Virus record (IMG/VR): IMGVR_UViG_3300012983_000043
Length of the DNA stretch: 64,000 bases
Direction: 5' to 3' (one strand)
Source: an uncultured virus (IMG/VR IMGVR_UViG_3300012983_000043)
Taxonomy: Duplodnaviria > Heunggongvirae > Uroviricota > Caudoviricetes
In this document: positions 15,317 through 52,702 of the stretch, one piece after another
Position numbering within the stretch: the first letter of the stretch is position 1
Layout of the letters: every line of letters starts with the position of its first letter
Made by a program: the position numbers and the translations under genes
Notes under the pieces: model-generated
Told to the model about the DNA's origin: nothing
The model's database searches: none
What the model saw: the letters and a program-made list of their open reading frames with translations, nothing else

Positions 15317-15762
15317 TGTGAATCATCAGCAATCAAAGTTATCAATGAATCAATGCATTTAGCAAATGCTTGAGCAACATCAATAGTCTGCTTTTGATTA
15401 ACTATATGTTCATCGGCAAACTTGTCTTTGATTAGTCTATAGACCATAGTCTTGTTGTCAAGTTCATAGTATTCAACAAGCCATTTCTGTAAATGCTTCT
15501 TCTTGTCAATGTTGTTCTTTATCACTGGATCTTTCAACTGGTTGATGAATGCTCGTAGTTCTTTTCTCCAGTGGTTGAAGTTGATGTTCTCTGGATCAAA
15601 CAACTGACACCATTTGCAAAGACACCAGTTCTCAACTAGCTCATGCATGCAAAAATCAATTTTCCTGATGTAGACTTTCAATGGCATAGCCATTTCATTC
15701 ATCATTTGCTTGATTTTCTTATGCTCTTCAAGCATTTTTTCAATGTCAATTGGCTTTTTCAT
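15313..15762 (-). CDS. hypothetical protein truncated by the IS; original 13-aa tail lies at 13864-13906
   Basis: Empty-site join reads IADDSQ-STMNYINAVFSCV*. Confidence 0.75.
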   Translation of the reverse strand: MKKPIDIEKMLEEHKKIKQMMNEMAMPLKVYIRKIDFCMHELVENWCLCKWCQLFDPENINFNHWRKELRAFINQLKDPVIKNNIDKKKHLQKWLVEYYELDNKTMVYRLIKDKFADEHIVNQKQTIDVAQAFAKCIDSLITLIADDSQ

Positions 15763-16736
15763 GATATTTCTTGACTAATTATATCAATTGTCTTTTTCTT
15801 GTTCACTCGAAACTACTTTAGGTAGTCTTTATTAAATTTTCTTTCAACATAATTTACAAAATATGAATAATCTTTATGTTTCATTATTACAACACTATTC
15901 TATATCATACATTGATGTTTTGCCGCATATTTTTTATTGATTTTAGCATATTGTTCATCTGTCCAAGTTTTCTTTCTAAATGGACAAAATAAAATGCCAT
16001 TCCTATTAAAGAACTAATCACCTTTGATTTCTATCAGCATATTAAATTCTTTTATGAGAAAATCAGCATGATAAACATATTTTTTCCCTTCAAACATGTA
16101 ATATAATGGAAAATCTGGCTAGTATTCAAATTCAAAGTTATTGTCTTTCAACCAGATGTATAATGCAATTTCAGGAGCAGAATCAAAATATTTGTTTTCA
16201 TACATATATTTTCTATGCATTTTCTAATGTGTGATTGATGTTCCACCACCATTTTTCACACCATATCTTTTAAGACATGTTTCATTATTCTATTCTCGAT
16301 TATTATAATTTTCATTGCCATATAGTCGTTTGTTAGTAGCTTTTATCTTGTCTCGAGTTATTTGGTCTTTGTTCACACATACTAGACAACAATGCTTATT
16401 GTATCCTCTAGTATATGATAAAACATTTTTATGTAAACCTATAGCATTATTGCATTCTTTTCTCTGGCATTTTGGAAAATCTATTAATCCATTTGCTATC
16501 CAATACAATCTTGTCGACATTTTCACATTAAAATCACAACTATTTAATATTGATGTTTTTGCATATATCCACGGAATCAATATAGATGTCATATAGACTT
16601 TATATTTATAGTCAACATTTATTGTATTTCTAGGTTTCTTTATTCCTCTAGACAAACTTAGAATTGTTTCTTTAATTCCATATTTTAGAAATGTTTTGCA
16701 TAGCAATTCATAATTATTATAGTCAATGTCAGTCAT
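15759..16736 (-). CDS. free-standing PD-(D/E)xK-type (homing-like) endonuclease, TAG-recoded
   Basis: 325 aa through 6 TAG; TNKRLYG/TCLKRYG repeats, FDSAPE...FEY(Q)P...ADF...IEIKG. Confidence 0.75.
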
Positions 16737-16940
16737 TAAAAGTTTGTTCTAAACAGGAACAAGCATGTAAGTTCTAATGTAATCATCATCTATCATTTAT
16801 AATTTCCTTGAATTTAAACTATAAAACTCTATCTAGGCTGCGAAAACTAGATAGAGCTAATTTTTAATAATTTGTTCTCATCTAAATTCGCAGCGATAGA
16901 ACAATTATATTTATATTATACACTCAAAAATGCAAGGCTG

Positions 16941-22475: not shown

Positions 22476-23764
22476 TCAGTCTTCTATCCAATTTCCATCA
22501 TCTTTGAGATAATCCTCTTCAAAAGAATCATCTTTTGCATCACTCCAACCCTGAGAATATGCTTCTTGCACAACTTCTAAAATGTCATTTAAAATGCTAT
22601 TTCTGTCAAGCGCTATAGAATAGAAATCTAAAATAGATTCGACTCTTTTCTTGAATTTTTCATCCATGTCAATCTTCCATGATGTCATCAACCATCTCTG
22701 GTGTGATTCCCAAGTCAACACGTCCCTTGAGCTCAAGAGCTTTGAGCTTGTTCATGACTGTCAGCTGCTTCGTCAGTTCTTGCGCTGCTATAGCCAATGT
22801 ATGATAGAAGTCTTCTTCAAAGCGCGTCATTTACTTGTCTCCTTTGTTTTTGACTAAATTATATCAAATTGCGCGCACGGTTTTCACTCAACCACTTGTC
22901 TACATAGTCATATAAGACTTTGCCAGTCCTTAAGTCAATTGTCTTGACAGTGTATGTCTTCCAATTGAGATCAAATAGCCAGTTCTCAAAGTCAGGCGAA
23001 GTCTGTTTGTTGAAGCCAGCATTCACTATCATCTCTTCAAATGTCATTGGCTCACTAGAGAAAGAATTGCTTTTGTCTCTATGCCAAGACATGACTGCAC
23101 CTTCATGTGTTATCATCTTGCACTTTGGATGCTTGCATGTCAAAAAGTTCTTGTATGTCCTGTATGGCACATCGCATGGACGCACAAGCGCATAGTCAAA
23201 CTTGTCAGGATCAAATTTGAAGTCTCGTGTGTCAATCTTCCAGATTTTTTCTACAACTGCAGTGTTGTTGCTTTTCATGATTCGAAGTCTATCTTTATAT
23301 TATTCATGTCTGCCCAGACTAGAAGCTCTTCTTTATTTGAAGAAGAAGCTATAGTAAACCATATTGGAATATTGTTATATGTCTTAATGCCATTCAAGTA
23401 CCATGCTCTTGTTCCATGGTGCAAGTTACATGAATTGAATATGACATTTTGATTCACTTTGTATATGTCAATCATATTGATTGCTTACATTGATGATTTG
23501 TCCAAATAAACCATATTGATTGTCTGCGATGAATTGCCCATATGAATAGTTTTCAATTGTCTTGTCTATAGTGATGTTATGGACATCAGCCCATACACGA
23601 ATTTCATCTTCATTGTCTGAATCTACAATGAAATGCACACGTTTTTTGTCAAATATTCCAATCAACTGCCAATTCATCATGAAATAGTCATCTCTATAAT
23701 TAAGAACAAATTTGTCATATTTGTCATATGGCAGTGTATGTCCAATCACTTGAAGCATCTTCAC
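22476..23764 (-). CDS. run of small hypothetical genes (about 22476-22674, 22859-23278, 23275-23475, 23468-23764)
   Basis: Overlapping start/stop codons; tags SNKEELLVWADMN and DNEDEIRVWADVH. Confidence 0.65.
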
Positions 23765-24930
23765 TCCTTGTAGCCAAGATATTTCAGAATCTTCTCAGTC
23801 GGCACATTCATGAAGAAGTCTCTGACTGATGCAATCTTCTTGTCAAGAAGTCCGAATGCTAATCCGGGAATCTTGAAGTTCTTAGTTATCCACAGAGCTT
23901 TGTCTTTTCGTGTCTGCAAGCTAGAATCTACTTTTAGATATTCATTCCATTCATTCTCTGAGTCTTCAACTAATTTCCAGAATCTTGTCTTGCACTCTTC
24001 AAGAGCTGCACGGAACTCCTCAAAGTACTCACATATCTCTTCTATCTCATTTGCACGGACAAGCTCAATAGCTCTAGCATATGACATCGTCCCATTCCCT
24101 TTGAGATGGTGAGCAGCTACATATGATGGAGATTTCACCTTCACTCTGTTGAACTTTCCATCACATACAACATATCCCTCTTCATCCCATGGCATTTCTT
24201 TTGTTGCAGCTAAGCATTCATCAATTGACTTCAAAGGAAAGACTTTTGGAGTGTCAAACAGCTTTGAGAAGACGGGGTCATCAGTGAAGTAAGTCTCCTC
24301 AAAAGTCTCATTGTTGCGCTTTCCAAGAAAGTAGAGTTTGTTCTCTTTATGAGGCACTACTACACGAGTCCATGGAGAGCATAACTCAAACATGTACGTG
24401 TAGCCTTCTTCCCAAAGAGCACATAGTCCTTCCTCTTGCAGCTTCTTCTGCCAGCCAGACTTCTCAAGAACAGCATCAAGCTGCTCAGCTACAATGTCAC
24501 CAAAGAAGCTGTATCTGCAGCCGAGCTGCTCTGCAATAGGTGCCTTAGAAGCAAGAATAGTCCCATTAGTAGAGATAAGCAAGTTGTCACCAACATTCAC
24601 AATCTTAATCAAGCTTCCATCTACCTTCTCTCCACAGCGAGCCGTAGTCCAGTCAATCTCTGGGCAGTATCCTTCTCCATAGTTTCCAAACTTCATGAAA
24701 GGAAATGAGACAATCTCATTGGTGTCTTCATTGAGAATCAAGCCACGGCACTCACGCACAATTGGCTCATTGAAGTCAGAATCAACTTGAGAGTACTTGA
24801 GCATCAAGAGATTCATGCCATTCCACTGCTCCCTTGACATAGTCAAGCAATATGGCTTCTCAGACAGCAGCTTCTCCCAGTCATCTGGATGCTGCTCAAT
24901 GAAGTTTTGAACTAGAAGTTTCTTTTTCAT
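23761..24930 (-). CDS. T4 Rnl1-like ATP-dependent RNA ligase
   Basis: ECRGLIL, FPFMKFGNYGE, motif I EKVDGS, TYMFEL, motif IV EGYVV, motif V RVKVKS..Y. Confidence 0.9.
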   Translation of the reverse strand: MKKKLLVQNFIEQHPDDWEKLLSEKPYCLTMSREQWNGMNLLMLKYSQVDSDFNEPIVRECRGLILNEDTNEIVSFPFMKFGNYGEGYCPEIDWTTARCGEKVDGSLIKIVNVGDNLLISTNGTILASKAPIAEQLGCRYSFFGDIVAEQLDAVLEKSGWQKKLQEEGLCALWEEGYTYMFELCSPWTRVVVPHKENKLYFLGKRNNETFEETYFTDDPVFSKLFDTPKVFPLKSIDECLAATKEMPWDEEGYVVCDGKFNRVKVKSPSYVAAHHLKGNGTMSYARAIELVRANEIEEICEYFEEFRAALEECKTRFWKLVEDSENEWNEYLKVDSSLQTRKDKALWITKNFKIPGLAFGLLDKKIASVRDFFMNVPTEKILKYLGYKE

Positions 24931-27866: not shown

Positions 27867-28712
27867 ATGAATGCAAAATCACAAATTGAATTTTGGGCAA
27901 GAATGCTCAATGAGAGCTCTCATGAATCATACTACAAGATGTACATGGCTGAGCATCCTGAAGACAAGCCTTTGCCTTTGATGAAGTCATTAGCAGAAGA
28001 GTTTGCAGAAGACTTGAAGAAAGACAACATAGACTTGAATGACTGCTTGAATGCTAAAGGTCTAGCTGACATCGGTGTGCTAGAGAAGATGCAAGCTTCA
28101 ATCAAGCACAAATACAAATGGGAATTGATAGATGCACGGGTATATGCAGCTATCATAAGTCGCATGACAGCATTAATGCACAGAGCTAAAGGCTAGAAGT
28201 TCACAGAGTCTGACACAATAGAATATGGTGATGTTGTTCACAATGTCTCTAGACGAGTGATTGAAAAATGCCTTGACATAATATGCCACAACACAAATGT
28301 GCTTGATGCAAACAAAGCTCTGTCAATGAGATATGACGTGACAACTGGCCCAAGCAAAGAAGCAATAGAAGCTTTCAAGTCTGCAGGAATCCCTGCAATT
28401 CCAAACTATGTGCCCGGTGATGGAGTTGTGACTGACTACTTTCCAGCTGCTATGCTCTACAAAGCATGGGCATCTTATGCAAAGGGAACTGCAGGAGAGA
28501 AGTATGTATGTGACAGTGACAATGGTCCAGAAGCTTTGAGAAAAGTGCTAGACAATGTTGAATACTCAGCTGATGACATTGACTTAATTGTTGCTCTCAA
28601 CAAGTCACTTGACATTGTTCATTTCAGAAGTGACTTAGCTGCAGCATTCATTGAGGGCGGACAGAGCACATGCGCAATGGTCAGCAATCTGCCTGACAAA
28701 TTTGTTGTGTGA
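27867..28712 (+). CDS. hypothetical protein, TAG-recoded (joins two track ORFs)
   Basis: Same frame across TAG at 28194-28196. Confidence 0.7.
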
Positions 28713-29196
28713 ATGACTTCAGCACTTCATCAAGCCTGACAGGAAATCCATCATGCGCTTGAACACAAGAGCAGAAGTTTGAAGACTTGTCTAATGGACC
28801 GACAACATAGCCTCGATGCATGTGTCCATATATCTGGTTCATAGAGCAGTCTTTTGGCTTGTGCTGAATGACAACATTGAATTCTTCAAGAATCAATCTG
28901 TCTAATACGGCATCAAAGACTTCTCTATAGAAGTCATCAGACAGCTTGTCATGATTTCCCTTTATCAGCATAATTCGACCATTCAGTCTTGACTTGAAGT
29001 TCAAGACACTTTTCTCATCGCCGTCACAGAAATCTCCATTGTACAAGACTATGTCATCTGAATTGACAGTTGAATTCCACTTCTCTATCAGCTTCTCTTC
29101 TTGCTCAGGCGTGAACACATGCAGAAATGGAAGCTTTATCGAGTCAAAATGATGGTCACTTGTGACAAATGTCTTCAATGGATCAATCTTCATCAT
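28681..29196 (-). CDS. calcineurin-like metallophosphoesterase
   Basis: SDHHF, NGDF, KGNHD, YGHMH. Confidence 0.85.
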   Translation of the reverse strand: MMKIDPLKTFVTSDHHFDSIKLPFLHVFTPEQEEKLIEKWNSTVNSDDIVLYNGDFCDGDEKSVLNFKSRLNGRIMLIKGNHDKLSDDFYREVFDAVLDRLILEEFNVVIQHKPKDCSMNQIYGHMHRGYVVGPLDKSSNFCSCVQAHDGFPVRLDEVLKSFTQQICQADC

Positions 29197-29578
29197 TAGT
29201 CTCAACTTGCTGTGGTTCTTCAACTATCTTGATTTTCAAGCCAGGAAATTCAGCAAGAAGATTTCCCATTGCTTCTCTCTTTGTGCTAGCTAGAACATAT
29301 GCCTCAGCATATGGATTCTTCGGATCAAGAAGCTTGCCATCTGGCCATTGAGCAGTGTAGCATATCTTGTACTGGTTCACCATTCGTCTTTTGTCCTTCT
29401 GTTTAGTTCTCGACGTGTATTTGCTTTGTCTTTCTTAGAGAATACTGTCCGAGTGCCAGTGTTCATCTTAATGACAATTCTTGGAATATAGGGTGTCTTC
29501 TTTTTCTTAGAGTTCTTCTTTTTCACAGTTGTCTCCTTTGGTTGATGTGACAACTATATCATAAACTGCAAGCAATGT

Positions 29579-33124: not shown

Positions 33125-33427
33125 TTATAGCATCATGTCAACTGCAATGAGAATCTCTTCAAGTGACTTCTTCTCAGGTGCATAGCCGATGAACTTGTTG
33201 TCTTTGAAGACGCGTCCATGAATTCCATTCTTCTCAATGTCTTCTAAGATTGTCCTAAGTCCGCCTTCATGACCAATCATGTAGTAGAGATGCTTGTTGT
33301 CTTCGAAGTCAATTTCAACACTGAATTCATCAACAAACACTTCCACACCATAGCTTTCACATATCTTCTCAAGCTTAGTAAGAGATGATGGCTTTCGCTT
33401 GTGCTTTGTCTTTTTGTTTGATGGCAT
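33125..33427 (-). CDS. hypothetical protein with C-terminal tag
   Basis: KSLEEILIAVDMML. Confidence 0.7.
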   Translation of the reverse strand: MPSNKKTKHKRKPSSLTKLEKICESYGVEVFVDEFSVEIDFEDNKHLYYMIGHEGGLRTILEDIEKNGIHGRVFKDNKFIGYAPEKKSLEEILIAVDMML

Positions 33428-33441
33428 ATCATTCTTCTAAA

Positions 33442-33516
33442 TGGCTGAGGATGAACGAGTCGAACGTTCACTCTCGGTATCAAAAACCGATTTGCTCACC
33501 GCTACAACAATCCTCA
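33442..33516 (-). tRNA. tRNA-Gln(UUG)
   Basis: TGAGGAT/ATCCTCA acceptor, TCGGT-TTTTGAT-ACCGA, TTCGA, CCA. Confidence 0.9.
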
Positions 33517-33523
33517 AGTAAAA

Positions 33524-33598
33524 TGGTACGCCCAACGCTGCTCGAACTTGTAACTCCAATGTTAAAGTATCATTGCTCTACCAACTGAGTTAGGGCAT
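33524..33598 (-). pseudogene. degenerate tRNA pseudogene
   Basis: CTCAGTTGGTAGAGC D-arm, GTTCGA and ACCA present; anticodon and T stems do not pair canonically. Confidence 0.6.
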
Positions 33599-33651
33599 TT
33601 AAACATTCTGTATTTAAATTATATCAATTAACATTGTATTTTTATACTCAA

Positions 33652-34542
33652 TTAACCGCGTTTTTTGCCACGTGATGATTTATATTCAGGCAAATAGCAT
33701 TTACATAATCCAACAAAATTTGCCTATGAATATTGATAATCAAAATGTTCTTTAAATTTCTACCATCCATGATTGACATAATATTCATACATAGGTCTTA
33801 ATTCAGCAATTCGTTTTGGTTTGATTTCATTTTCACGTTTTTTCATGTAAAAATGCTTAAGCATCATCTTTCCATGTTCATTTAGTGGTTTTCCACGTTT
33901 TTCAAAACTAAATGGAATTGGATCATCTTTATTGATATATTTGACTTCATTAGTATTTGGATTAAATATTTTGCATTTATTTTTAGTGCTTTGTGAAAAT
34001 TCTTTCAATTGAGATATTACTTTATCAGTTATAGTCTAATACATTCCATATTCCCAACCATCAGGAAGCATTTCTGATTTAAGAATGACTTTTGATTCTT
34101 TCGTTGTTGGATTGCGAATCCAACAACGCTTCTTCATTGGATTATTTTCTCCTTTATTTGCTTCACTTGCAATTTTTGAAGCAAGCTTTCCAAATTCTTC
34201 TCTAGCCTATTGATAGTCTTCAGACATCAAAATGAAATCTCTCAATTCTTTTCGACTTCCATTTACAGTTCCTTTGTGCATGTTCATCAATGCACAAAGC
34301 ATCTAATCATGAAATTCATCATCATGATGAATGATCCAAAGATACACATGAGCCATAAAATGCTCTTTTGCAAGAAGAGCTATTTTATTCTCTTCAACAT
34401 CTAAACCATTCATTGAAGTTGGAATGATATGATGTATCTCTATTCTTCCTGGATGTTCTTTTGACTTAATCAAGACATTCTATTTTCTATATGCAACTAA
34501 GTCATTATAAGCTTTCTAAGCTTCTTCTTTTGTCATTGTCAT
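33652..34542 (-). CDS. HNH homing-type endonuclease, TAG-recoded
   Basis: EIHHIIPTSMNG.D...N...L.AKEHFMAH; multiple in-frame TAG; GTAAATA at 34580-34586. Confidence 0.8.
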
Positions 34543-34647
34543 TTTCTTTTTACCTTTTCTGTCATTGCTGTGACATTTTTATTTACTTTTTTATATAAAA
34601 TAATATACCCAAATCTGTTGGCAGCAACCATGAGTTTGGGTATAAAA

Positions 34648-34797
34648 TGGTCACAGTGATGAGAGTTGAACTCACTTAACCCTGATTATGGAGCTGGGTG
34701 AGGATTCCGAGACCTCATATTCCGTCTTACAAGGACGGCTCTTAACCGTTCAGACAACCCAGCAAAGTCAGGTGCATATCCGTTTTGCTACACTGTG
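34648..34797 (-). tRNA. tRNA-Lys(UUU), split in the anticodon by a nested tRNA-Thr (halves 34764-34797 and 34648-34688)
   Basis: CACAGTG...CCTGA-CTTT | TAA-TCAGG...CACTGTG-A-CCA. Confidence 0.88.
34689..34763 (-). tRNA. tRNA-Thr(UGU) nested inside tRNA-Lys
   Basis: GCTGGGT/ACCCAGC-T-CCA; CCGTC-CTTGTAA-GACGG. Confidence 0.88.
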
Positions 34798-34806
34798 CAA
34801 TAAATT

Positions 34807-34897
34807 TGGTCGCCAGAACGAGAGTTGCACTCGTACACAGTTTTTAACCTGCACTGGATTTTGAGTCCAGCTCGTCTGCTTATTCCGACATCTGGCG
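34807..34897 (-). tRNA. tRNA-Leu(CAA)
   Basis: CTGGA-CTCAAAA-TCCAG, long variable arm, ACCA. Confidence 0.9.
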
Positions 34898-34921
34898 AAA
34901 TCATCTTTATTCTATCAAAAA

Positions 34922-35443
34922 TCAATCTTCTTTAAACAACTTCTTGTCAGCATTCAACTTCTTTGCTGCATCCATGAATTCATTCAACCTGTCTTTCACT
35001 TCAAGAAGACTTCTTTTCAAATCATAGTTCTCTTCTTCTACCTCTAGAATCCGTCTTGACATATCCGACACCAGCTTATGCTGTGCATCATCACTGACAG
35101 AGACATTTGCAATCAAGTCTCTGATGCAAGAGGGCTCTTGCTCAAGCTCTGCAACATATCCCTCTGTCTCTAGTCTGATGAGAAGCTCATGAATGTCTTT
35201 AGCATTGAAATCATGTATCAATTCAGTGTGGTCTTCAAGTATGATGCTCTTCCGCTGTTTAATGTCAAGACTGTTGAGTTTTGCAATTCTTGTGTATCTT
35301 CTGGTATGCAAGAAGATGCGTCCAATGTTCATGTCATCATAGAACACAACATGACCTAAGTTCTTCATGTCATCAAGCTTGGCAATTGCCAAATCAGACC
35401 AGTCATCATCAACTAAAAGGACATATTTTGTCTTTTCACTCAT
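34922..35443 (-). CDS. hypothetical protein, internal tag plus coiled coil
   Basis: KDIHELLIRLE; layout like 24927-25352. Confidence 0.7.
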   Translation of the reverse strand: MSEKTKYVLLVDDDWSDLAIAKLDDMKNLGHVVFYDDMNIGRIFLHTRRYTRIAKLNSLDIKQRKSIILEDHTELIHDFNAKDIHELLIRLETEGYVAELEQEPSCIRDLIANVSVSDDAQHKLVSDMSRRILEVEEENYDLKRSLLEVKDRLNEFMDAAKKLNADKKLFKED

Positions 35444-35988
35444 CAGTGAACTCCAGCTTTCAAGTCTGCCCAGACTATCAGTTCGTCAATTGATGAGACA
35501 TCAGGCGTCTTGTATTCAGAATATTTTTTAATTTCATGCAGTGGTCTATTGATCAATCTATCTGCTACAGCGTCAAACAGAACATTGAATCTCATTGTTG
35601 CAGCTGTGCCGTAATTGCACTTTATTGCGTCTGACACAGCTCGATTGATTCTGCTGAACACAACATTCACTAGCTTTCTTTCATCAAGATGGAATTCACT
35701 GACTAGCTCTTCAAGAGAGACAATCTGCTCTCTAAGCATGATGCGTGGATTTGCCTTTTTGAAGAGAGAATCTACTTTGCCAAATGATCCAATGTCATCA
35801 CTCCATCGATTGTATGACAAGCGGTAGTAGTTGTTGCTAGTGTCTTTCACTCTGAAGAAGAATCTGTTCTTGAGGCTGGTTGCATTCACATAGAAGACTG
35901 GCTTGCCAGCTGGCACAACGGCCGCTGCAAATGCATAGATGAATTGCTTCATCTCTTCAAAAGAATGTCTTTTGCTAGTTGTCTTCAT
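35443..35988 (-). CDS. hypothetical protein with C-terminal tag
   Basis: SSIDELIVWADLKAGVH; start approximate. Confidence 0.7.
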   Translation of the reverse strand: MKTTSKRHSFEEMKQFIYAFAAAVVPAGKPVFYVNATSLKNRFFFRVKDTSNNYYRLSYNRWSDDIGSFGKVDSLFKKANPRIMLREQIVSLEELVSEFHLDERKLVNVVFSRINRAVSDAIKCNYGTAATMRFNVLFDAVADRLINRPLHEIKKYSEYKTPDVSSIDELIVWADLKAGVH

Positions 35989-36139
35989 GTGTCTGATCTC
36001 AAAAAACTTGCATGCACCTATCACCGCATGCATTCATGCTGGAGACATATTGTCCAAGCATAGAATGAATGCATGCTCTTGTATGTTAGTTGTTGTGTCA
36101 CTGGAGTTGACGAAGCGTCCACGCTTTTGCATGCAATGC

Positions 36140-36286
36140 TGGCATCCCTGAGAGGACTCGGACCTCCAACCACAAGCTTATGATGCCAAGCGCAAGACTC
36201 GAACTTGCATTTTCCTAATATGCTAGGATGTCTTGCATTAGACGAACTTGACGAAGGCTCGTGCTCTTCCATTGAGCTACAGGGAC
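36140..36286 (-). tRNA. tRNA-Arg(UCU), split in the anticodon (halves 36253-36286 and 36140-36180)
   Basis: GTCCCTG-TA-GCTC..GAGC-A-CGAGC-CTTC | TAA-GCTTG...CAGGGAT-G-CCA. Confidence 0.88.
36181..36252 (-). ncRNA. 72-nt tRNA-like insert without a canonical anticodon loop
   Basis: GTCAAGT/GCTTGGC acceptor, GTCT/AGAC D-stem, TCCTAG-CATA-TTAGGA, GCAAG-TTCGAGT-CTTGC, ends A-TCA. Confidence 0.85.
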
Positions 36287-36294
36287 TTCAAACA

Positions 36295-36763
36295 TCACTT
36301 GTTCTTGCCGCGGCCCTTCTCCTTGCGCCGCTTGATCTCCTTGTGCACGCCCGGAGCAGTTCCCTTTGCCCACTCTTCAAGCACAGCATTTGACACGCAC
36401 CTGACAACGGGCTTGATCTTTGTCAAGAAGTAGTATTGCTTGCTTGAACGGTTCTTCACTGGCGGGACATGTGTTCCTGGAATCTGAATCATCTTTTGTT
36501 CTCCAATTTATTTTGTTTCAATTATATCAAATTCTTCTCAAGTCTTTCACTCAAGCATTGTAGATCTGGCCCTTCCAGCGATATACATTCTGGCGCTCAA
36601 TCTTGCCAGTCCTCTTGTTCTTGTATGTCTTTGATGACTGCCCATATGCAATCTCTACACCAGTTGCTCCAGCAGGAATCAATGTCTTAGATGTCTCTGC
36701 ATCCCAGACAGGATATTTAGTCGGCTTGCCAAGCGGCTTGAAGTCATATTCATTCATAGTAGT
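36295..36763 (-). CDS. two small hypothetical genes (36295-36492, about 36551-36757)
   Basis: Track ORFs, RBS, promoter element between them. Confidence 0.55.
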
Positions 36764-36937
36764 TTCCTTTTCACTTTCCATAGATTCCAAAGATCAAGAT
36801 GACAATGAATGCAATGATGCCAAGCACACAACCGCATCCGGCTCGAATTGCATCATCACGAGCAAACTCTTCTTTTTCTTGTTGGTTGTCATTCATGGTT
36901 GAATTATATCATATTGCATATGATTCTTTAACTCAAT

Positions 36938-37012
36938 TGGTGCCTCTGCTAGGAATTGAACCTAGCTTACATGGATGAAAACCATGTGTACTAACCGCTA
37001 TACGACAGAGGC
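36938..37012 (-). tRNA. tRNA-Glu(UUC)
   Basis: CATGG-TTTTCAT-CCATG; GCCTCTG/CAGAGGC-A-CCA. Confidence 0.92.
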
Positions 37013-37066
37013 AATTTAATTGATTGTCTTGATTTCAGACAAAATAGCAGTCATATTTGCATAGCA

Positions 37067-37504
37067 TCAAGCATCATATACAGGACCGCCTTGTTCAGAG
37101 CCGCCGCCATTGACAAGAATTGTTTCATCTTGTCTTCCATCACTGATCCTGTCAAGCGCATTCTTCAATATAGTGTCAAATGCATCACCGCTTAATGCAG
37201 ATGAAAGTGCATCAGGCAATTCATTAGTAAGCACTTGCTCTGCTATTCTTGCAACTTCTTCTTCAAGAGCTTCCGTCAATGCATCTTGCACAGCTTGTCC
37301 GACAATAGACGATATCTGTGGCGTGAGCTCATTCTTCACTTTTGCTTTTATGTAGTTAGAGTAAGTTCCGACCTGAAGCTTCTTTGACTCAAATGGATAT
37401 TTTCCACCTGTGTGGTCTGACACAAGAAGCAGGTCATTGTTGTCAATGCTCGACTATGCCATCTCTGGCAGCTGTGATATCTTGAAAGACTTAGTTGTTG
37501 CCAT
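37067..37504 (-). CDS. hypothetical late-type protein, TAG-recoded
   Basis: MATTKSFKISQLPEMA(Q)SSIDNNDLLLVSD continues into the track ORF. Confidence 0.65.
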
Positions 37505-37751
37505 TTTCATTTGCCTCATTGCATTCTTCTTTTGTCAGCCTGAACTTCTCTAATTCATCTAGAAAGAACTTATCACCGAATTCATTTATCAACCAGCAAT
37601 ACTCATCATAGTCGGGTGACTCTTCTGGTATGCCTCCGCCAATGACATAAGGCGCAAACTTTCTTGCAATTGCTTGTGCTCTCATCAGACGAGCATATGC
37701 AGCTTGCCGCTGCTAGTTGATCTTCCACCAATATATCTAAGTAGCTGTCAT
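37491..37751 (-). CDS. hypothetical protein, TAG-recoded
   Basis: MTAT(Q)IYWWKIN(Q)QRQAAYARLMRAQ...; GTAAATA at 37757-37763. Confidence 0.65.
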
Positions 37752-37770
37752 GATTTTATTTACTTCAAGT

Positions 37771-37864
37771 TGGTGACAGGGGATGGATTCGAACCACCGA
37801 TGTTTACCACTTAGGTACGAGTTTTACAGACTCGCGTCTTCGGCCAGCTAGACAAAACCCTGCC
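37771..37864 (-). tRNA. tRNA-Tyr(GUA)
   Basis: CGAGT-CTGTAAA-ACTCG, long variable arm, GTTCGAAT, ACCA. Confidence 0.9.
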
Positions 37865-37876
37865 AATAAACTCAAA

Positions 37877-37952
37877 TGGTAGGCGATGAGTGAGTCGAAC
37901 ACTCCTAAGCTCCTTATAAGAGAGCAGTAATCAACCGATATACGAATCGCCC
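37877..37952 (-). tRNA. tRNA-Ile(UAU)
   Basis: GCTCT-CTTATAA-GGAGC; GTTCGACT; ACCA. Confidence 0.88.
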
Positions 37953-38137
37953 ATAAATCGCGGAGGGTTTTTTGTTGAGCCATCACATAAATGTGCTTGC
38001 GGCGTTATATTCAACATAATGAGCTTAACATCACGTCTAATGAAACTCCAACCCACAACTTCTTGCAAGTGACTGCTGTGTCTCAAGCAGCTTTCATTGA
38101 CATATTATCAAATTTCATTTGACTTTAAACTAAATTC

Positions 38138-38211
38138 TGGAGCGCCGTGCGGATCCCGAGACCGCATATCCAGCTTGGAAGGCTGGCATTCTGCCTTTGA
38201 ATTAACAGCGC
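38138..38211 (-). tRNA. tRNA-Gly(UCC)
   Basis: CCAGC-CTTCCAA-GCTGG; GCG start, T-CCA end. Confidence 0.9.
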
Positions 38212-38225
38212 ATACATTAAAAAGA

Positions 38226-38490
38226 ATGCTCACATATCTGACTGGAACTTGCAACAAATGAGGTACCTAAGTCAGCAAGCCTTCGGCGCTATTCACCAAA
38301 CTGTTCAGTATTCCATTATTGATGCTTTAATAGACACATCTTTCAATTTTCAGGTATGCACCTTCGCAATCAGCATGACTCTCAGTTGTCTGCTCACCTT
38401 AGATATGGGGCATTTGACTCCCCAATGAGGTGTAAGGCTGCCGTTGAAGCATTAAGCATACGAGGTCTGACTCCCTCTCTACATGAGCAT
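38226..38490 (-). ncRNA. candidate ~265-nt structured RNA
   Basis: ORF-free; closed by ATGCTCATGTA/TATGTGAGCAT helix; internal GGG/CCC and CTGACT/AGTCAG complements. Confidence 0.45.
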
Positions 38491-38539
38491 AATAAAACTA
38501 ATTTTTGTAATAAGATTTAAACTTACAATCTTATTATAC

Positions 38540-39349
38540 TTAAGAACAATTTCTAAAAATATTTTCAAGCTATTTAACTACATTGTTTTTAGGACGAATT
38601 CTTATAGTCATATAGCCATTCTTCAATGCAATTTCATCTTTTTGCTTATCTGCTATATTTCCTTCAGGATGCCAAAATTCTCCATCAATTTCAATAAATA
38701 GCTTTTTTAAAGGAATATAAAAATCTACAAAACGTTTTATATTTTCAAAACAAAATTCTTTTTGGTGTTCAAAAATAATATTATGCTTTGATAACCAATC
38801 AAATGCAACTTGTTCAGGATAAGTCATCTATTTTCTATTTCCTGCTAATTTACGATTAGGATGTTTTTCAGGATGTTCTGTATAAAACTTCTTCTTTTTT
38901 TCTGACTAAGCTTTACGTTTTTCATCTGTCCAATATAATGAAGAACATCTATTTATTATAGATCCATTTGCTATACCTTCTTTCATAGCAATTGAAACTG
39001 CTTTAGAATTACGTTTTACACGTTCATCGGTTTCTTTTGTAAGACCTTTATTCCAAGCATATATTCTTCCATCTTCTCCAATTTTAACATGATTATTATG
39101 AATATGTTTTTGTAATTCATTTTTTGTTTTACAAATCTTATTACAATGTTTACATTTCCATGTTCCAAATGGAGCAGTCTGTTTAGAATGATCCTATTTT
39201 ATTCCACGTCTCTTTAAACCAAGAGCAATATAATCAATGGATAATGATGCCATTGCACTAGCACAGGATTTTGAACAAAATCTTCCAGAACCATAAGATC
39301 CATCATGTTCTTTTTTACATTTTGGATTTTCACAAATATATTTTTTCAT
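38540..39349 (-). CDS. Vsr/DUF559-like (EDxHD-type) endonuclease with zinc-finger N-terminus, TAG-recoded
   Basis: CENPKC..HDGSYGSGRFCSKSC; TYPE...FVDFY...IEIDGEFWH...KD; GTAAATA at 39355-39361. Confidence 0.8.
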
Positions 39350-39389
39350 AAAAATATTTACTCAAGCGCATTACTAAACTCATCTAAAT

Positions 39390-39465
39390 TGGTCGGAGCG
39401 CCAGGTGCTGCCCCTGGACCTTCGGTTCCCAAAACCGGCGTGCAAAGCTGTTATACCACGCTCCG
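39390..39465 (-). tRNA. tRNA-Pro(UGG)
   Basis: CCGGT-TTTGGGA-ACCGA; CGGAGCG/CGCTCCG-A-CCA; atypical GGCAGCA T-loop. Confidence 0.88.
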
Positions 39466-39472
39466 AAATCAA

Positions 39473-39620
39473 TGGTGGACCTGATCGGTGCTGCCCCGAT
39501 TCAATGATGCTTGAGGAGCTGAGACTAAGACTCGAACTTAGATCTTCCTAAGTTGCTAGGATGTCTTGCATTAGACGACCTCAACCAAAGCACCCGTGTT
39601 TGCTGATTCACTACAGGCCC
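39473..39620 (-). tRNA. tRNA-Ala(UGC), split in the anticodon (halves 39586-39620 and 39473-39513)
   Basis: GGGCCTG/CAGGTCC-A-CCA with G3:U70; GGTGC-TTTG | CAA-GCATC. Confidence 0.88.
39514..39585 (-). ncRNA. 72-nt tRNA-like insert, homolog of 36181-36252
   Basis: GTTGAGG/TCTCAGC acceptor; shares CGTCTAATGCAAGACATCCTAGCA..TTAGGAA and AAGTTCGAGTCTT; ends T-CCT. Confidence 0.85.
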
Positions 39621-39630
39621 AAATAAAATT

Positions 39631-39785
39631 CTCATGTGGGTGGACTCGAACCACCAAGCTTTCGCGGCAGATTATGGACGATCTATCTGGAGTTGCACCA
39701 GAATCGCAGCCATTCTCATGATTGCATTCTACTATTTAACTATAGACCGACAGTCTGCTGAGGCTACCGATTTCTCCACACATGA
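39631..39785 (-). tRNA. tRNA-Asn(GUU), split in the anticodon (halves 39750-39785 and 39631-39674)
   Basis: TCATGTG/CACATGA-G; GCAGA-CTGT | TAA-TCTGC; GGTGG-TTCGAGT-CCACC; CCA not encoded. Confidence 0.85.
39675..39749 (-). ncRNA. 75-nt tRNA-like insert
   Basis: CGGTCTA/TAGATCG-T-CCA; TCTGG-TGCAACT-CCAGA; extended irregular anticodon arm. Confidence 0.8.
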
Positions 39786-39795
39786 ATAAATTGTT

Positions 39796-39919
39796 TGGTC
39801 CGGCAAGGAGACCACTACTTCTCCAATGCTAAGCTTTCACATATGATCATGCACTTAGCGCCCACCTCAATGCGGGTGTGTCTATGGCGAGACTCTACGT
39901 CTCTTTGCACCATTGCCGA
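39796..39919 (-). ncRNA. 124-nt enlarged tRNA-like RNA
   Basis: TCGGCAA/TTGCCGG-A-CCA; GGAGA/TCTCC; extra GAGAC/GTCTC hairpin; CCCGC-ATTGAG-GTGGG; long GCTAAG/CTTAGC arm. Confidence 0.65.
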
Positions 39920-39923
39920 AATT

Positions 39924-40085
39924 TAGCGGGTGTGGGAAATGCTCCCAACGTGGATGTTATCCGGGAGGTTTGGACAATCGGTCAAGACTCGAACTTGAAT
40001 TGCTTTCTACTTAATTCAAAAGTGTTTTACATCTTAAACTACCGGTTGATGGGCCTCCTGACTTTGACTTCTAGTCTAACCCGCA
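39924..40085 (-). tRNA. initiator-like tRNA-Met(CAU), split in the anticodon loop (halves 40049-40085 and 39924-39970)
   Basis: GCGGGT/ACCCGC with 1:72 mismatch; GGAGG-CCCAT | AA-CCTCC. Confidence 0.82.
39971..40048 (-). ncRNA. 78-nt tRNA-like insert
   Basis: CAACCGG/CCGATTG-T-CCA; GTTT/AAAC D-stem; TCAAG-TTCGAGT-CTTGA; irregular anticodon arm. Confidence 0.8.
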
Positions 40086-40329
40086 ATTAAATTCTCTATT
40101 CAGAAGCTCACAACTTCTGACAAACCAACTTCAATTTTCAAAGAACAATTATATTATACATCAATGCCAAAGCATTATATACTTTTATTTCATCTTAGGG
40201 CACTTGTAGTTTGCATGATTGTCAACTGCAGGACACAGAGCATTGTCTTTGCATGCTTCACATGTCTGCTTGCTTGGCTTCACTGCAGGTTTGTCTTTGA
40301 GAATTTTCTTGTTCATATTGTCAATTCAT

Positions 40330-44161: not shown

Positions 44162-44797
44162 TCACATAAACTTGTCTTCGCCGAAGAATTCAAGTTTTCC
44201 GTGTTCATTCTTCTTGCATCTGTAGAGCTGGCCTGGAATCTTCTTGAAGAGCTTATTGAGATATGCAATCAATTCATCATCTGAGACAATCTTCCAGTTC
44301 CACACCATGCATCCCATGTTCACATTCAAAATCCTGTGGTCAAGGTCAAGACAGTGCTTCCAGCTGTTATGGACATGCCCGCATAAGTGAATGGGCGCTG
44401 TCATGCATGATGCATCGCACCGGCGGTCATATGTAGGGTAGTGTGACAAAGACACAGACGGATATCTCTTGCTCAAGAATATGTGCATAGAGTCACACAC
44501 TGACTTGACTTTGTTGTTCAAGTCATGATTGCCTCTGATGTTGATGAATGTCGCAGAAATGTCTTTTATCAGCTCATAGGGCTTGACATCTAGGCCTTTA
44601 GAGTCTAGATGCGCATCTTGCTTGAAGCACGCAAGGTCGCCCAAATGGTAGATTATGTCTTCAGGCTTAGCGCGTTGCTTGCATGACCTGAGCAGCGCAG
44701 CATCATGTTTCTCAATAGACTTAAATGGCCATGAGTCTAGCTTAAGCAGAGACTCAAAACCAAAATGAAAATCGGATGAGAAGTATTTATGTGCCAT
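44162..44797 (-). CDS. calcineurin-like metallophosphoesterase
   Basis: SDFHFG, LGD, RGNHD, SHYP, CGHVH. Confidence 0.88.
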   Translation of the reverse strand: MAHKYFSSDFHFGFESLLKLDSWPFKSIEKHDAALLRSCKQRAKPEDIIYHLGDLACFKQDAHLDSKGLDVKPYELIKDISATFINIRGNHDLNNKVKSVCDSMHIFLSKRYPSVSLSHYPTYDRRCDASCMTAPIHLCGHVHNSWKHCLDLDHRILNVNMGCMVWNWKIVSDDELIAYLNKLFKKIPGQLYRCKKNEHGKLEFFGEDKFM

Positions 44798-52306: not shown

Positions 52307-52702
52307 TCACTCAACAATGATCTCGCCTGGATAGTCTTCCATAGACTTCTTGAAGTTGTCAACAAGACTGTCGCTCAATCCATGCACATTCTTGAAATTG
52401 CCTGTGCATCTGTAGACATCAAAGCTTGCACCGATCTCATCAGCGATCTTCTTGTATGCATCTACAAAGGCTCGTTTTGTGAATGTATTGGCCACAACAA
52501 CATCAAAGTGATTCTCTAAAGCCGTTCTAGCCATATTCATGCACCATTCTATAGCAGCTGGCATATTCTCTTTATGCCAGTCATAGACTCCATTGTGCAT
52601 ATGATACTGATCATTCTCAAGTAAAAGCGTATTTGGAAACATACGCTTAGCAGCAGAGCTCTTGCCACTGCCCGGTGCACCTCTGTATAAGATCAATTTC
52701 AT
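52307..52702 (-). CDS. AAA_33/PNK-like P-loop kinase
   Basis: LYRGAPGSGKS, VVVANTF, NVHG. Confidence 0.8.
   Translation of the reverse strand: MKLILYRGAPGSGKSSAAKRMFPNTLLLENDQYHMHNGVYDWHKENMPAAIEWCMNMARTALENHFDVVVANTFTKRAFVDAYKKIADEIGASFDVYRCTGNFKNVHGLSDSLVDNFKKSMEDYPGEIIVE

What the first reader, a model, noticed from the sequence alone, without database searches (positions are those of the whole stretch)
34648..34797. A canonical tRNA-Thr(UGU) sits inside tRNA-Lys(UUU): two tRNAs from one nested gene
The insert 34689-34763 has a perfect acceptor stem, a CTTGTAA loop and encoded CCA, so both intron and exons could be functional decoders. It may represent the ancestral state from which the anticodon-less inserts derived (inference). 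tRNA-Lys(UUU) is the established target of the PrrC and PARIS anticodon nucleases, so a defence-related role is plausible but unproven.
Basis: partly seen in the sequence, partly recalled or inferred. Interest (0 to 1): 0.9.

Follow-up and report, generated by a model that had tools for sequence, protein, structure and literature searches.

The report
Threonine tRNA nested inside lysine tRNA
In a phage from ruminant gut samples, a complete threonine tRNA gene sits in the middle of the anticodon of a lysine tRNA gene, so one transcript may give two tRNAs if ordinary tRNA-trimming enzymes cut the inner one out and a phage RNA ligase reseals the outer one.

Summary
On the minus strand, 34797..34648 is a 150-nt gene. 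Its middle 75 nt (34763..34689) are a tRNA-Thr(UGU) with an encoded CCA. Joining the two flanks gives a 75-nt tRNA-Lys(UUU). The insert lies between the second and third anticodon bases.

It is not alone: four more tRNA genes in the same 6-kb cluster carry tRNA-shaped inserts. Each insert runs exactly from tRNA position +1 to 76, and three of the four also sit after the second anticodon base. Related contigs lack one of these inserts precisely.

The window also encodes a T4 Rnl1-type RNA ligase, a polynucleotide-kinase-like protein and two phosphoesterases.

Best reading (inferred, no RNA data): RNase P cuts at the insert's 5' end, an endonuclease cuts after A76, tRNA-Thr is released, and the ligase seals tRNA-Lys.

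- "Ancestral state": the Thr insert resembles the cluster's stand-alone tRNA-Gly, not the other inserts.
- A lysine-specific defence role: four other tRNA species are split the same way.

tRNA-like introns in phage tRNAs were noted, unexplained, by Devoto et al. 2019, and this scan has seen such inserts on other DNA. This is a new, cleaner variant.

The parts
34648..34797 (-). Whole nested gene: outer tRNA-Lys(UUU) precursor, 150 nt, ending in ACCA
   Evidence: The fold keeps all outer helices.
34764..34797 (-). Exon 1 of tRNA-Lys: acceptor 5' strand, D arm, anticodon-stem 5' strand, loop CTTT. It ends after the second anticodon base.
   Evidence: Read. Joined to exon 2 in a script, it gives ARAGORN tRNA-Lys(ttt).
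34689..34763 (-). Insert (intron): complete tRNA-Thr(UGU) with discriminator T and encoded CCA
   Evidence: ARAGORN. Rfam RF00005 40.6 bits against gathering score 29.
34648..34688 (-). Exon 2 of tRNA-Lys: TAA, anticodon-stem 3' strand, variable loop, T arm (loop TTCAACT), acceptor 3' strand, A, CCA
34807..34897 (-). tRNA-Leu(CAA), 91 nt, 9 nt upstream of the nest; probably in the same transcript
   Evidence: ARAGORN. Rfam 45.7 bits. Promoter-like site at 34936-34909, which is a consensus match only.
34590..34640 (-). Hairpin (cccaaa...tttggg) followed by a T-rich run just after the nest; possible terminator
   Evidence: Read by eye. Not called by the terminator scan, whose loop limit is 8 nt. 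Kept in L002, which lacks the nest.
33652..34542 (-). Free-standing homing endonuclease gene with 7 in-frame TAG codons, directly downstream of the nest
   Evidence: phrog_655, E 6.6e-22. TAG count and 30% GC. Absent from relative X3: the joint 33449->34646 has 126 other letters in its place.
23761..24930 (-). T4 Rnl1-type RNA ligase, the proposed sealing enzyme
   Evidence: Pfam PF09511, 63.6 bits against cutoff 28.3. phrog_562, E 9.2e-52, profile positions 28-366 of 377. Best solved relatives are T4 RNA ligase 1 entries 2c5u, 9do4 and 5tt6; EKVDGSL aligns with T4 TKEDGSL.
52307..52702 (-). P-loop protein resembling a polynucleotide kinase domain (131 aa)
   Evidence: Pfam AAA_33, 41 bits against cutoff 27. 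phrog_505 'polynucleotide kinase' E 3.6e-11 and phrog_2071 E 6.2e-22. No solved relative by sequence.
28681..29223 (-). Metallophosphoesterase, a possible 3'-end healing enzyme
   Evidence: Pfam Metallophos. phrog_547, E 2.3e-28.
44162..44797 (-). Second metallophosphoesterase
   Evidence: Pfam Metallophos_2. phrog_547, E 2.5e-27.
36140..36286 (-). Nest B: tRNA-Arg(UCU) split after the second anticodon base by a 72-nt tRNA-shaped insert (36181-36252) with a 6-nt 'anticodon' loop and tail A+TCA
   Evidence: (ARAGORN Arg(tct) after excision), 47. The insert scores 34.6 bits with Rfam tRNA.
39473..39620 (-). Nest C: tRNA-Ala(UGC), with a G3:U70 pair, split after the second anticodon base by a 72-nt insert (39514-39585) with a 6-nt loop and tail T+CCT
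   Evidence: ARAGORN does not call the joined exons, whose T loop is GGCAGCA. 23 nt are shared exactly with insert B.
39631..39785 (-). Nest D: outer tRNA (ARAGORN: Asn GUU, 11-nt variable region) split after the second anticodon base by a 75-nt insert (39675-39749) with an 8-nt loop and tail T+CCA
   Evidence: The insert scores 32.2 bits with Rfam tRNA.
39925..40084 (-). Nest E: outer tRNA with a CAU anticodon, split right after the anticodon by a 78-nt insert (39971-40048) with tail T+CCA. Relatives lack exactly this insert.
   Evidence: ARAGORN call 39971-40048. Joints 39954/5->40049/59 in X1, X3 and X6, with the letters between them listed (tables 5 and 5c). The outer limits were read by eye.

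Best explanation
One phage gene holds two tRNAs.

Anatomy (shown). The transcript folds as a tRNA-Lys body. The acceptor stem of a complete tRNA-Thr(UGU) rises out of its anticodon loop. The insert starts exactly at tRNA position +1 and ends exactly at A76 of its CCA. It sits between U35 and U36 of the lysine anticodon.

Proposed pathway (inferred):
1. RNase P cuts at the 5' end of the inner tRNA. Exon 1 is left with a 3'-OH.
2. An endonuclease that cuts directly after CCA, such as an RNase Z of the Thermotoga type, frees the inner 3' end. Exon 2 is left with a 5'-phosphate.
3. tRNA-Thr is now mature.
4. The two lysine halves stay together through their 7-bp acceptor stem and 5-bp anticodon stem.
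5. The phage's T4 Rnl1-type RNA ligase joins the 3'-OH and 5'-phosphate ends in the anticodon loop. The loop CUUUUAA is restored and tRNA-Lys(UUU) results.

The four neighbouring nests follow the same rule with inserts that cannot decode. The insert type therefore behaves as a tRNA-shaped intron, and the Thr case is the one in which the intron is itself a usable tRNA.
For: Shown:
- The nest and its exact limits.
- 5 of 5 nested genes in 34648-40084 have inserts that run from an acceptor-stem 5' end to three bases past the discriminator.
- 4 of 5 inserts sit after the second anticodon base and 1 of 5 sits after the third. Each exon pair restores a 7-nt loop.
- Excising 3 of the 5 inserts at those limits gives an ARAGORN tRNA, against 0 of 8 stand-alone tRNA controls.
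- For nest E, contigs of three runs (X1, X3, X6) lack the insert. Their exons join exactly at the predicted limits, giving loop CCCATAA or CTCATAA.
- The Ala nest has G3:U70 in the register set by the insert ends.
- Inserts B and C share 23 identical bases in the D and anticodon arms. They differ by paired changes at 3 acceptor and 2 T-stem pairs, so the acceptor/T helix is what is kept.
- No anticodon occurs both as a stand-alone tRNA and as a nested outer tRNA in the window.
- A nearby tRNA-like stretch (about 33520-33590) has a broken T arm and 5 of 7 acceptor pairs, whereas the outer Lys has 7 of 7, 5 of 5 and 5 of 5 (read by eye).
- An Rnl1-family ligase with the KxDG motif lies in the window.
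- No ribozyme or group I intron model matched 33300-40300 at E<=5.

From the literature:
- T. maritima tRNase Z cuts CCA-containing precursors precisely after A76 (PMC1540738, abstract seen in the listing).
- From recalled knowledge: RNase P and RNase Z leave 3'-OH and 5'-phosphate ends, and T4 Rnl1 seals tRNA-Lys anticodon loops.
Against: - There is no RNA evidence of any kind, so neither splicing nor the enzymes are shown.
- No intron-less tRNA-Lys allele was found. The one diverged relative with sequence in hand (L002) lacks the whole nest, so the nest is dispensable as a unit.
- Inserts B and C end in TCA and CCT, not CCA. An enzyme that needs CCA to cut after position 76 would not explain them.
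- The enzyme for the 3' cut in the unknown host is a guess.
- The window also encodes a kinase-like protein and two phosphoesterases. These fit a different chemistry, with 5'-OH and cyclic-phosphate ends, equally well.
- Rnl1-type ligases are common in large phages without such nests: 1053 phage records matched.
- The inner tRNA has a T:T pair and an unusual T loop.
- The fold z-score is weak.
Confidence: 0.45

Rival explanations
1. Dead shell. A tRNA-Thr gene landed in a tRNA-Lys gene and killed it. Only tRNA-Thr is made, and the lysine halves are merely its leader and trailer and are degraded.
For: - No RNA data (one search lists no RNA holder).
- No intron-less Lys allele was seen.
- L002 lacks the whole nest.
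- No known bacterial pathway splices such an insert; literature searches found none.
- Earlier notes of this scan read nested tRNA genes in ultra-small bacteria as dead shells.
Against: - All outer helices are intact.
- Five nests share the same exact geometry. Four of their inserts cannot decode, so on this reading the phage would keep five dead tRNA genes and four useless inserts.
- The inner and outer identities differ, unlike the same-identity replacement cassettes described.
- Relatives keep the exons of nest E both with and without the insert.
- The nested identities are not duplicated elsewhere in the window.
Confidence: 0.25
2. Splicing does happen, but by a different chemistry. An unidentified phage or host endonuclease cuts both sites and leaves 5'-OH and 2',3'-cyclic phosphate ends. 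The kinase-like protein and a phosphoesterase heal the ends and the ligase seals them, as in the T4 Pnkp/Rnl1 repair of tRNA-Lys or the fungal and plant tRNA ligase pathway.
For: The window encodes a polynucleotide-kinase-like protein, two metallophosphoesterases and the ligase. Inserts B and C lack CCA, which fits a cut placed by shape rather than by CCA.
Against: - The splice sites coincide with the two natural ends of a tRNA in 5 of 5 nests. This is what RNase P and a 3'-end maker would give without any new enzyme.
- No bulge-helix-bulge motif is present: the junction is a 4 x 7-nt internal loop.
- No candidate endonuclease was recognised among 94 ORFs scanned with Pfam.
- The inner tRNA would also need healing at both of its ends.
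Confidence: 0.15
3. The lysine halves are released but are not meant to be joined. The split or unspliced form acts as a decoy or reserve that anticodon nucleases aimed at tRNA-Lys cannot recognise.
For: tRNA-Lys(UUU) is a known nuclease target and phage tRNAs can counter such defence (PMC11464382 and PMC12409363, titles and abstract starts seen; PrrC recalled). The insert splits the anticodon itself.
Against: Four other tRNA species are split in the same way, so nothing is special to lysine. A tRNA without an anticodon loop has no known activity. There are no data.
Confidence: 0.05

Closest known systems
'Enigmatic' introns of Lak megaphage tRNA genes (Devoto et al. 2019, PMC6784885). I read passages and part 4 of supplementary Table S6.
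   Same: - Phage tRNA genes are interrupted in the anticodon loop by short inserts that are not group I introns.
- The inserts end in a tRNA-like domain.
- One Lak intron, in a Thr(TGT) gene, gets an Rfam tRNA hit.
- Alleles with and without the intron occur, with precise limits.
- The phages use TAG as a sense codon.
   Different: - Lak introns (79-141 nt) carry an extra 5' hairpin and linker before the tRNA-like part, and most have no Rfam hit. Here the insert is nothing but a tRNA, from +1 to CCA.
- Here the insert is a well-formed decoder of another amino acid (Thr inside Lys).
- This phage has 40% GC, against 26% for Lak, and I found no sequence similarity to Lak.
- The paper offers no mechanism.
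T4 tRNA-Lys anticodon-loop repair: PrrC cut, then Pnkp healing and Rnl1 sealing (recalled; ligase family tested)
   Same: An Rnl1-family ligase joins a break inside the anticodon loop of tRNA-Lys(UUU). A kinase-like protein and phosphoesterases are also encoded.
   Different: In T4 the break is damage made by a host nuclease 5' of the wobble base. Here the break would be programmed by the gene itself, after the second anticodon base, and would release a second tRNA.
tRNA punctuation and tRNA-like processing signals: mitochondrial transcripts (PMC3790967, abstract start seen) and MALAT1 mascRNA (recalled)
   Same: A tRNA or tRNA-shaped element inside a longer RNA is cut out by RNase P and RNase Z. 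Both the element and the flanks are products.
   Different: In those cases the flanks are not rejoined. Here the flanks must be ligated to make a tRNA.
Archaeal and eukaryal tRNA introns (bulge-helix-bulge motif, EndA-type endonuclease, RtcB or Trl1 ligase), including the archaeal tRNA-Trp intron that holds a box C/D RNA, and split or permuted tRNA genes (recalled)
   Same: Splicing is done by protein enzymes and the intron can be a functional RNA in its own right.
   Different: There is no bulge-helix-bulge motif. The position is inside the anticodon rather than 37/38. The setting is a bacterial virus.
Group I introns in bacterial and phage tRNA anticodon loops
   Same: The anticodon loop of a tRNA gene is interrupted. 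The 484-kb phage LR756508.1 has tRNA-Lys(ttt) and tRNA-Arg(tct) with 193- and 175-nt inserts.
   Different: The insert here is 75 nt and is a tRNA. No Rfam intron or ribozyme model matched.
Nested 'Russian-doll' tRNA genes of Patescibacteria
   Same: A whole tRNA gene lies inside the anticodon loop of another.
   Different: There the insert sits on a hairpin stalk, has the same identity as the outer gene, and the outer gene is read as a dead shell. Here there is no stalk, the identity differs, and four sister inserts cannot replace their outer tRNA.

Membership tests
tRNA (Rfam RF00005): inner element | Cloverleaf scoring above the family's gathering score | tested here: met
   40.6 bits against 29 at 34692-34763. 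ARAGORN calls Thr(tgt) with a 7-nt loop and CCA.
tRNA: outer element after removal of the insert | Cloverleaf with a 7-nt anticodon loop, called by a tRNA finder | tested here: met
   ARAGORN calls Lys(ttt), 75 nt, on the flanks joined in a script. It also calls the gene with the intron option. Not tested with the Rfam model, because joined sequence was not sent to other tools.
Lak-type tRNA introns (Devoto 2019) | Short non-group-I insert in the anticodon loop of a phage tRNA gene, ending in a tRNA-like domain | tested here: met
   compared with Table S6.
Lak-type tRNA introns (Devoto 2019) | 5' hairpin plus linker ahead of the tRNA-like domain | tested here: not met
   The insert begins directly with the inner acceptor stem.
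Lak-type tRNA introns (Devoto 2019) | Related phages with and without the insert, with precise limits | tested here: inconclusive
   Met for the sister nest E. For the Lys/Thr nest, relatives either keep the whole nest (X3, X6, L001) or lack all of it (L002).
Group I intron | Conserved catalytic core (P3-P9), usually more than 200 nt, matching the Rfam model | tested here: not met
   The insert is 75 nt. No Intron_gpI match at E<=5 in 33300-40300.
Bulge-helix-bulge intron (archaeal/eukaryal type) | Two 3-nt bulges holding the splice sites, separated by a 4-bp helix | tested here: not met
   The fold shows a 4-nt by 7-nt internal loop between the outer anticodon stem and the inner acceptor stem.
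T4 Rnl1 RNA ligase family (the ligase at 23761-24930) | PF09511 domain above cutoff, motif I KxDG, full-length similarity to gp63 | tested here: met
   63.6 bits against 28.3. phrog_562, profile positions 28-366 of 377. EKVDGSL aligned to T4 TKEDGSL.
Splicing by RNase P + 3' endonuclease + ligase (proposed pathway) | Spliced junction and the expected end chemistry seen in RNA | not testable with these tools
   No RNA run holds the stretch.

The most novel reading that the evidence does not exclude
Bacterial viruses have a protein-only tRNA splicing pathway. Its intron is simply a tRNA-shaped RNA, and its 'spliceosome' is the cell's own tRNA end-trimming enzymes (RNase P and an A76-cutting endonuclease) plus a phage Rnl1-type ligase. 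Any tRNA can then serve as an intron, and this gene yields tRNA-Thr and tRNA-Lys in equal amounts from one transcript. The true everyday substrate of Rnl1-type ligases in large phages would be programmed tRNA splicing, not only damage repair.
Probability: 0.35. Interest if true: 0.88.

Novelty: new variant of a known kind. Interest (0 to 1): 0.72.

Why it matters
If the lysine halves are joined, three things follow.
- It would be a splicing route not described for bacteria or their viruses. The splice sites would be defined only by the shape of a tRNA, and the chemistry would be supplied by enzymes every cell already has plus one phage ligase.
- It would explain the 'enigmatic' phage tRNA introns reported in 2019.
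- It would give phage RNA ligases a routine job.

This gene is the cleanest test case because the intron is a complete, recognisable tRNA with nothing added. A 150-nt transcript, RNase P, an RNase Z and the ligase would settle the matter at the bench.

Tried and rejected
RNA evidence
- The look-up of sequencing runs listed no RNA holder. The reads laid were DNA contigs only.

Relatives
- Five IMG/VR scans found nothing: patterns from the Lys/Thr junction, from inserts B/C and from exon 1, plus the protein at 35443-36033.
- One genome-contig scan found nothing.
- blastn of 34600-34920 against the phage collection found nothing.
- The single metagenome scan gave two contigs: L001, identical to the window, and L002, without the nest. 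Covariation across relatives could therefore not be measured for this nest.
- No whole genome is held for the window.

Chance test that failed
- A loose two-helix scan (7-bp insert stem plus a flanking 5-bp stem) gave 80 hits on the plus strand and 91 on the minus strand. It does not discriminate and was dropped as a chance test.

Side exploration
- I searched the 484-kb phage LR756508.1, the best uncultured ligase match, for similar nests. 29 Rfam tRNA hits were found, six stretches were fetched, and ARAGORN made 6 intron calls. The two I inspected, Lys and Arg, have 175-193-nt inserts that are not tRNA-shaped.

Readings considered and rejected
- Bulge-helix-bulge intron, group I intron and self-cleaving ribozyme.
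- ARAGORN's Gln(ttg) reading. It needs splice sites one base off the inner tRNA ends. The same shift would turn the G3:U70 tRNA of nest C into Pro(UGG).

Other
- phmmer of the kinase-like protein against solved structures gave nothing useful.
- Literature searches for an earlier description or mechanism found only Devoto 2019 and its preprint as relevant papers.
Full report
**What is there**

All tRNA genes of the window lie on the minus strand. From 34797 down to 34648 the sequence reads as follows:
- acceptor strand CACAGTG, a D arm, and anticodon-stem strand CCTGA;
- four loop bases, CTTT;
- a 75-nt block (34763..34689);
- then TAA, stem strand TCAGG, a 5-nt variable loop, a T arm with loop TTCAACT, acceptor strand CACTGTG, A, and CCA.

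ARAGORN calls the 75-nt block tRNA-Thr(tgt). Its drawn structure has seven Watson-Crick acceptor pairs, loop CTTGTAA, discriminator T and CCA. Its T stem ends in a T:T pair and its T loop is CTCGGAA. The Rfam tRNA model gives it 40.6 bits against a gathering score of 29. The whole-window gathering run did not list it.

With introns allowed, ARAGORN calls a tRNA over exactly c[34648,34797] with a 75-nt intron.

**Is it more than chance?**

- Forty dinucleotide-preserving shuffles of the window gave no plain tRNA and one intron-tRNA call in all. The real window gave nine and three.
- I removed the insert in a script at exactly the ends of the inner tRNA. ARAGORN without the intron option then calls tRNA-Lys(ttt), 75 nt.
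- The same operation on eight stand-alone tRNAs of the window gave nothing in 8 of 8.
- The minimum-energy fold of the 150 nt keeps the outer acceptor, D, anticodon and T helices and the inner acceptor helix. The inner core is drawn differently and the z-score is only -1.62.
- A loose two-helix scan was useless as a test, with 80 and 91 hits per strand.

The arrangement is not an assembly artefact. Contigs from two other studies span it: X3 record 12 covers 34646-36136 with 88 differing letters, and X6 record 19 covers 34548-35131 with 20. A JGI metagenome contig, L001, also carries it unchanged.

**Lys or Gln?**

ARAGORN's intron call shifts the splice sites one base to the right and therefore names the outer tRNA Gln(ttg). 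With the splice sites at the ends of the inner tRNA, the loop is CTTT+TAA and the anticodon is UUU.

The sister nest C decides the register. With the splice sites at the insert ends it is Ala(UGC); shifted by one base it would be Pro(UGG). Its acceptor stem (GGGCCTG/CAGGTCC) has a G3:U70 pair, the alanine mark known from established work (read by eye). A stand-alone tRNA-Gln(UUG) already exists at 33442-33516. I therefore accept Lys(UUU), with the insert between the second and third anticodon bases.

**The surroundings**

The nest is one of five in the stretch 34648-40084.

| Nest | Outer gene | Outer tRNA | Insert | Insert features |
|---|---|---|---|---|
| A | 34648-34797 | Lys(UUU) | 34689-34763 | tRNA-Thr(UGU), 7-nt loop, tail T+CCA |
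| B | 36140-36286 | Arg(UCU) | 36181-36252 | 6-nt loop, tail A+TCA |
| C | 39473-39620 | Ala(UGC) | 39514-39585 | 6-nt loop, tail T+CCT |
| D | 39631-39785 | ARAGORN: Asn(GUU) | 39675-39749 | 8-nt loop, tail T+CCA |
| E | 39925-40084 | CAU anticodon | 39971-40048 | loop AATTAAG without U33, one acceptor mismatch, tail T+CCA |

- In all five, the insert runs from the first base of a 7-bp acceptor stem to the third base after the discriminator.
- In four of five it follows the second anticodon base. In nest E it follows the third.
- After excision at those limits, ARAGORN calls Lys, Arg and Asn. It fails on C and E, whose outer T loops are unusual.

For nest E there is an outside check. Contigs in three runs (X1, X3, X6) lack the insert, and the letters printed at the joint give loops CCCATAA or CTCATAA. 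The exons are therefore joined exactly where the rule predicts (tables 5 and 5c).

Inserts B and C share 23 identical bases across the D and anticodon arms. They differ by paired changes at three acceptor and two T-stem pairs. The acceptor/T helix is thus preserved as a structure.

**Gene content and the phage**

- The window has 40.4% GC. Pieces of the cluster stretch occur in ruminant gut metagenomes.
- None of 38 ORFs of 150 aa or more ends in TAG.
- Five low-GC mobile genes carry 3-7 in-frame TAG codons: two TnpB-like genes and three homing-endonuclease-like genes.
- One of these, a homing endonuclease (phrog_655), lies directly downstream of the nest at 33652-34542. Relative X3 keeps the nest but lacks this gene. 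L002 keeps the gene but lacks the nest. The two are independent.

The window also encodes RNA-repair-type enzymes:
- A T4 Rnl1-type RNA ligase at 23761-24930. It matches PF09511 with 63.6 bits and phrog_562 over nearly its full length, its best solved relatives are T4 RNA ligase 1, and it has a KxDG motif.
- A 131-aa protein resembling a polynucleotide kinase domain at 52307-52702.
- Two metallophosphoesterases.

No RNase P RNA, RNase Z or other recognisable endonuclease for RNA was seen. The window is only part of the genome, and no whole genome is held.

**How it most likely works**

Shown:
- The splice sites needed to rebuild each outer tRNA are the two natural ends of a tRNA.

Inferred:
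- RNase P cuts at the inner +1 position.
- An endonuclease cuts after position 76. A tRNase Z that does exactly this on CCA-containing precursors is known from Thermotoga maritima (PMC1540738, abstract in the listing).
- These cuts leave a 3'-OH on exon 1 and a 5'-phosphate on exon 2 (recalled enzyme chemistry). These are the ends that an Rnl1-type ligase joins in a tRNA anticodon loop (recalled from the T4 tRNA-Lys repair pathway).
- The halves would stay paired through 12 base pairs.

The products would be tRNA-Thr(UGU) and tRNA-Lys(UUU). Both would be useful to the phage: ACA is its commonest Thr codon (19.3 per 1000), and Lys codons total 95 per 1000 in the core ORFs. I put this at 0.45.

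Weak points:
- There is no RNA evidence.
- Inserts B and C lack CCA, so the 3' cut cannot depend on CCA in all nests.
- The host enzyme is unknown.
- The kinase-like and phosphoesterase genes fit a heal-and-seal chemistry equally well.
- Rnl1-type ligases are common in large phages that have no such nests: 1053 records matched.

**Rivals**

*Dead shell (0.25).* Only tRNA-Thr is functional.
- For it: no spliced form has been seen, the nest is dispensable as a unit (L002), and earlier notes of this scan read nested tRNAs of ultra-small bacteria this way.
- Against it: the lysine helices are perfect. Five nests share one geometry, and four of the inserts cannot replace anything. The identities of inner and outer differ. 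No anticodon is duplicated between stand-alone and nested outer tRNAs.
- A decayed tRNA-like stretch near 33520-33590 shows what a dead tRNA gene looks like in this cluster (by eye).

*Heal-and-seal splicing by an unknown endonuclease (0.15).* Its case is given above.

*Decoy or reserve against anticodon nucleases (0.05).* This is weakened because the split is not special to lysine.

- *Ancestral state.* The Thr insert is 66% identical to the stand-alone tRNA-Gly(UCC) of the cluster and shares its odd T arm. It is only 32-44% identical to the other inserts, whereas B and C are 78% alike. The Thr insert looks like an ordinary tRNA of this phage that occupies the intron position. It does not look like the parent of the anticodon-less family.
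- *Defence.* It is plausible in general that a phage carries tRNA-Lys and a ligase because of anticodon nucleases (PMC11464382 and PMC12409363, listing). Nothing links the nesting itself to that.

**Comparison with what is known**

Devoto et al. 2019 reported that Lak megaphage tRNAs contain 'enigmatic' introns, that one intron 'itself may encode a tRNA', and that alleles with and without it exist (passages).

Their Table S6 shows inserts of 79-141 nt, made of a 5' hairpin, a linker and a tRNA-like part that ends at the 3' splice site. Most have no Rfam hit (part 4 read). No mechanism is given.

My six searches for one found no other relevant paper.

Earlier notes of this scan describe tRNA-shaped inserts in other phages and propose the same route by trimming enzymes plus a ligase. 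I had written that idea down before seeing them. They are not independent evidence.

The present case differs from Lak in several ways:
- The insert is nothing but a tRNA.
- It is a full decoder with CCA.
- It has another identity than its host gene.
- The phage is unrelated in base composition.

I therefore rate it a new variant of a known, unexplained kind.

**Verdict**

- The mechanism is inferred but sharply testable.
- Interest is 0.72.

Noticed in passing
window 36140-36286, 39473-39620, 39631-39785, 39925-40084 (minus strand): Four more tRNA genes (Arg UCU, Ala UGC, a GUU tRNA with an 11-nt variable region, a CAU tRNA) are split in or next to the anticodon by 72-78-nt tRNA-shaped inserts that cannot decode (6- or 8-nt loops, or no U33). 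Two of the inserts end in TCA and CCT instead of CCA.
   Followed up: partly
window 39971-40048: Contigs of three ruminant-gut runs lack exactly this 78-nt insert and join the exons at the predicted bases. ARAGORN names the insert tRNA-Stop(tta), but its loop is AATTAAG without U33 and its stem is weak.
   Followed up: partly
window 4984-6165, 14012-15292, 15759-16796, 33652-34542, 38540-39349: Five low-GC (27-37%) mobile-element genes (two TnpB-like, three homing-endonuclease-like) carry 3-7 in-frame TAG codons each. None of 38 ORFs of 150 aa or more ends in TAG. No tRNA with a CUA anticodon was found in the window.
   Followed up: partly
window about 33520-33590 (minus strand): A tRNA-like stretch with a 9-nt loop ATACTTTAA, a broken T arm and only 5 of 7 acceptor pairs. 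It looks like a decayed tRNA gene. Neither ARAGORN nor Rfam calls it.
   Followed up: no
window about 39800-39912 (minus strand): A tRNA-shaped RNA ending in ACCA, with a 5-bp hairpin inside the D loop, a 6-nt 'anticodon' loop and a long variable arm. Neither ARAGORN nor Rfam calls it.
   Followed up: no
window about 38225-38500 (minus strand): About 260 nt bounded by acceptor-like strands (GCTCATG ... TGTGAGC), just upstream of tRNA-Gly. It may be another interrupted tRNA or a structured RNA. No Rfam match.
   Followed up: no
window 52307-52702, 28681-29223, 44162-44797, 23761-24930: A polynucleotide-kinase-like protein, two metallophosphoesterases and an Rnl1-type ligase are encoded as separate genes spread over 30 kb. 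Together they form a dispersed RNA end-healing and sealing set.
   Followed up: partly
L002 1410-1484, compared with window 34807-34897: A relative with 89% identity in the neighbouring protein has a different, 75-nt tRNA with anticodon CAA where the window has a 91-nt tRNA-Leu(CAA). It has no Lys/Thr nest. One X6 contig joins 34647 directly to 37770. The tRNA cluster is therefore reshuffled in whole-gene modules.
   Followed up: partly
window 34689-34763 and 38138-38211; 39473-39513 and 39390-39465: Lineage-specific T arms. tRNA-Thr and tRNA-Gly share the motif GGTCTCGGRATCC with a T:T pair. The Ala outer tRNA and tRNA-Pro share the T loop GGCAGCA.
   Followed up: no
L004 (LR756508.1) 12080-12348, 12479-12730, 12878-13102: A 484-kb uncultured phage has tRNA-Lys(ttt) and tRNA-Arg(tct) genes with 193- and 175-nt inserts in the anticodon loop. 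These are not tRNA-shaped and have no Rfam intron hit. A HEARO RNA (144 bits) lies next to them.
   Followed up: partly
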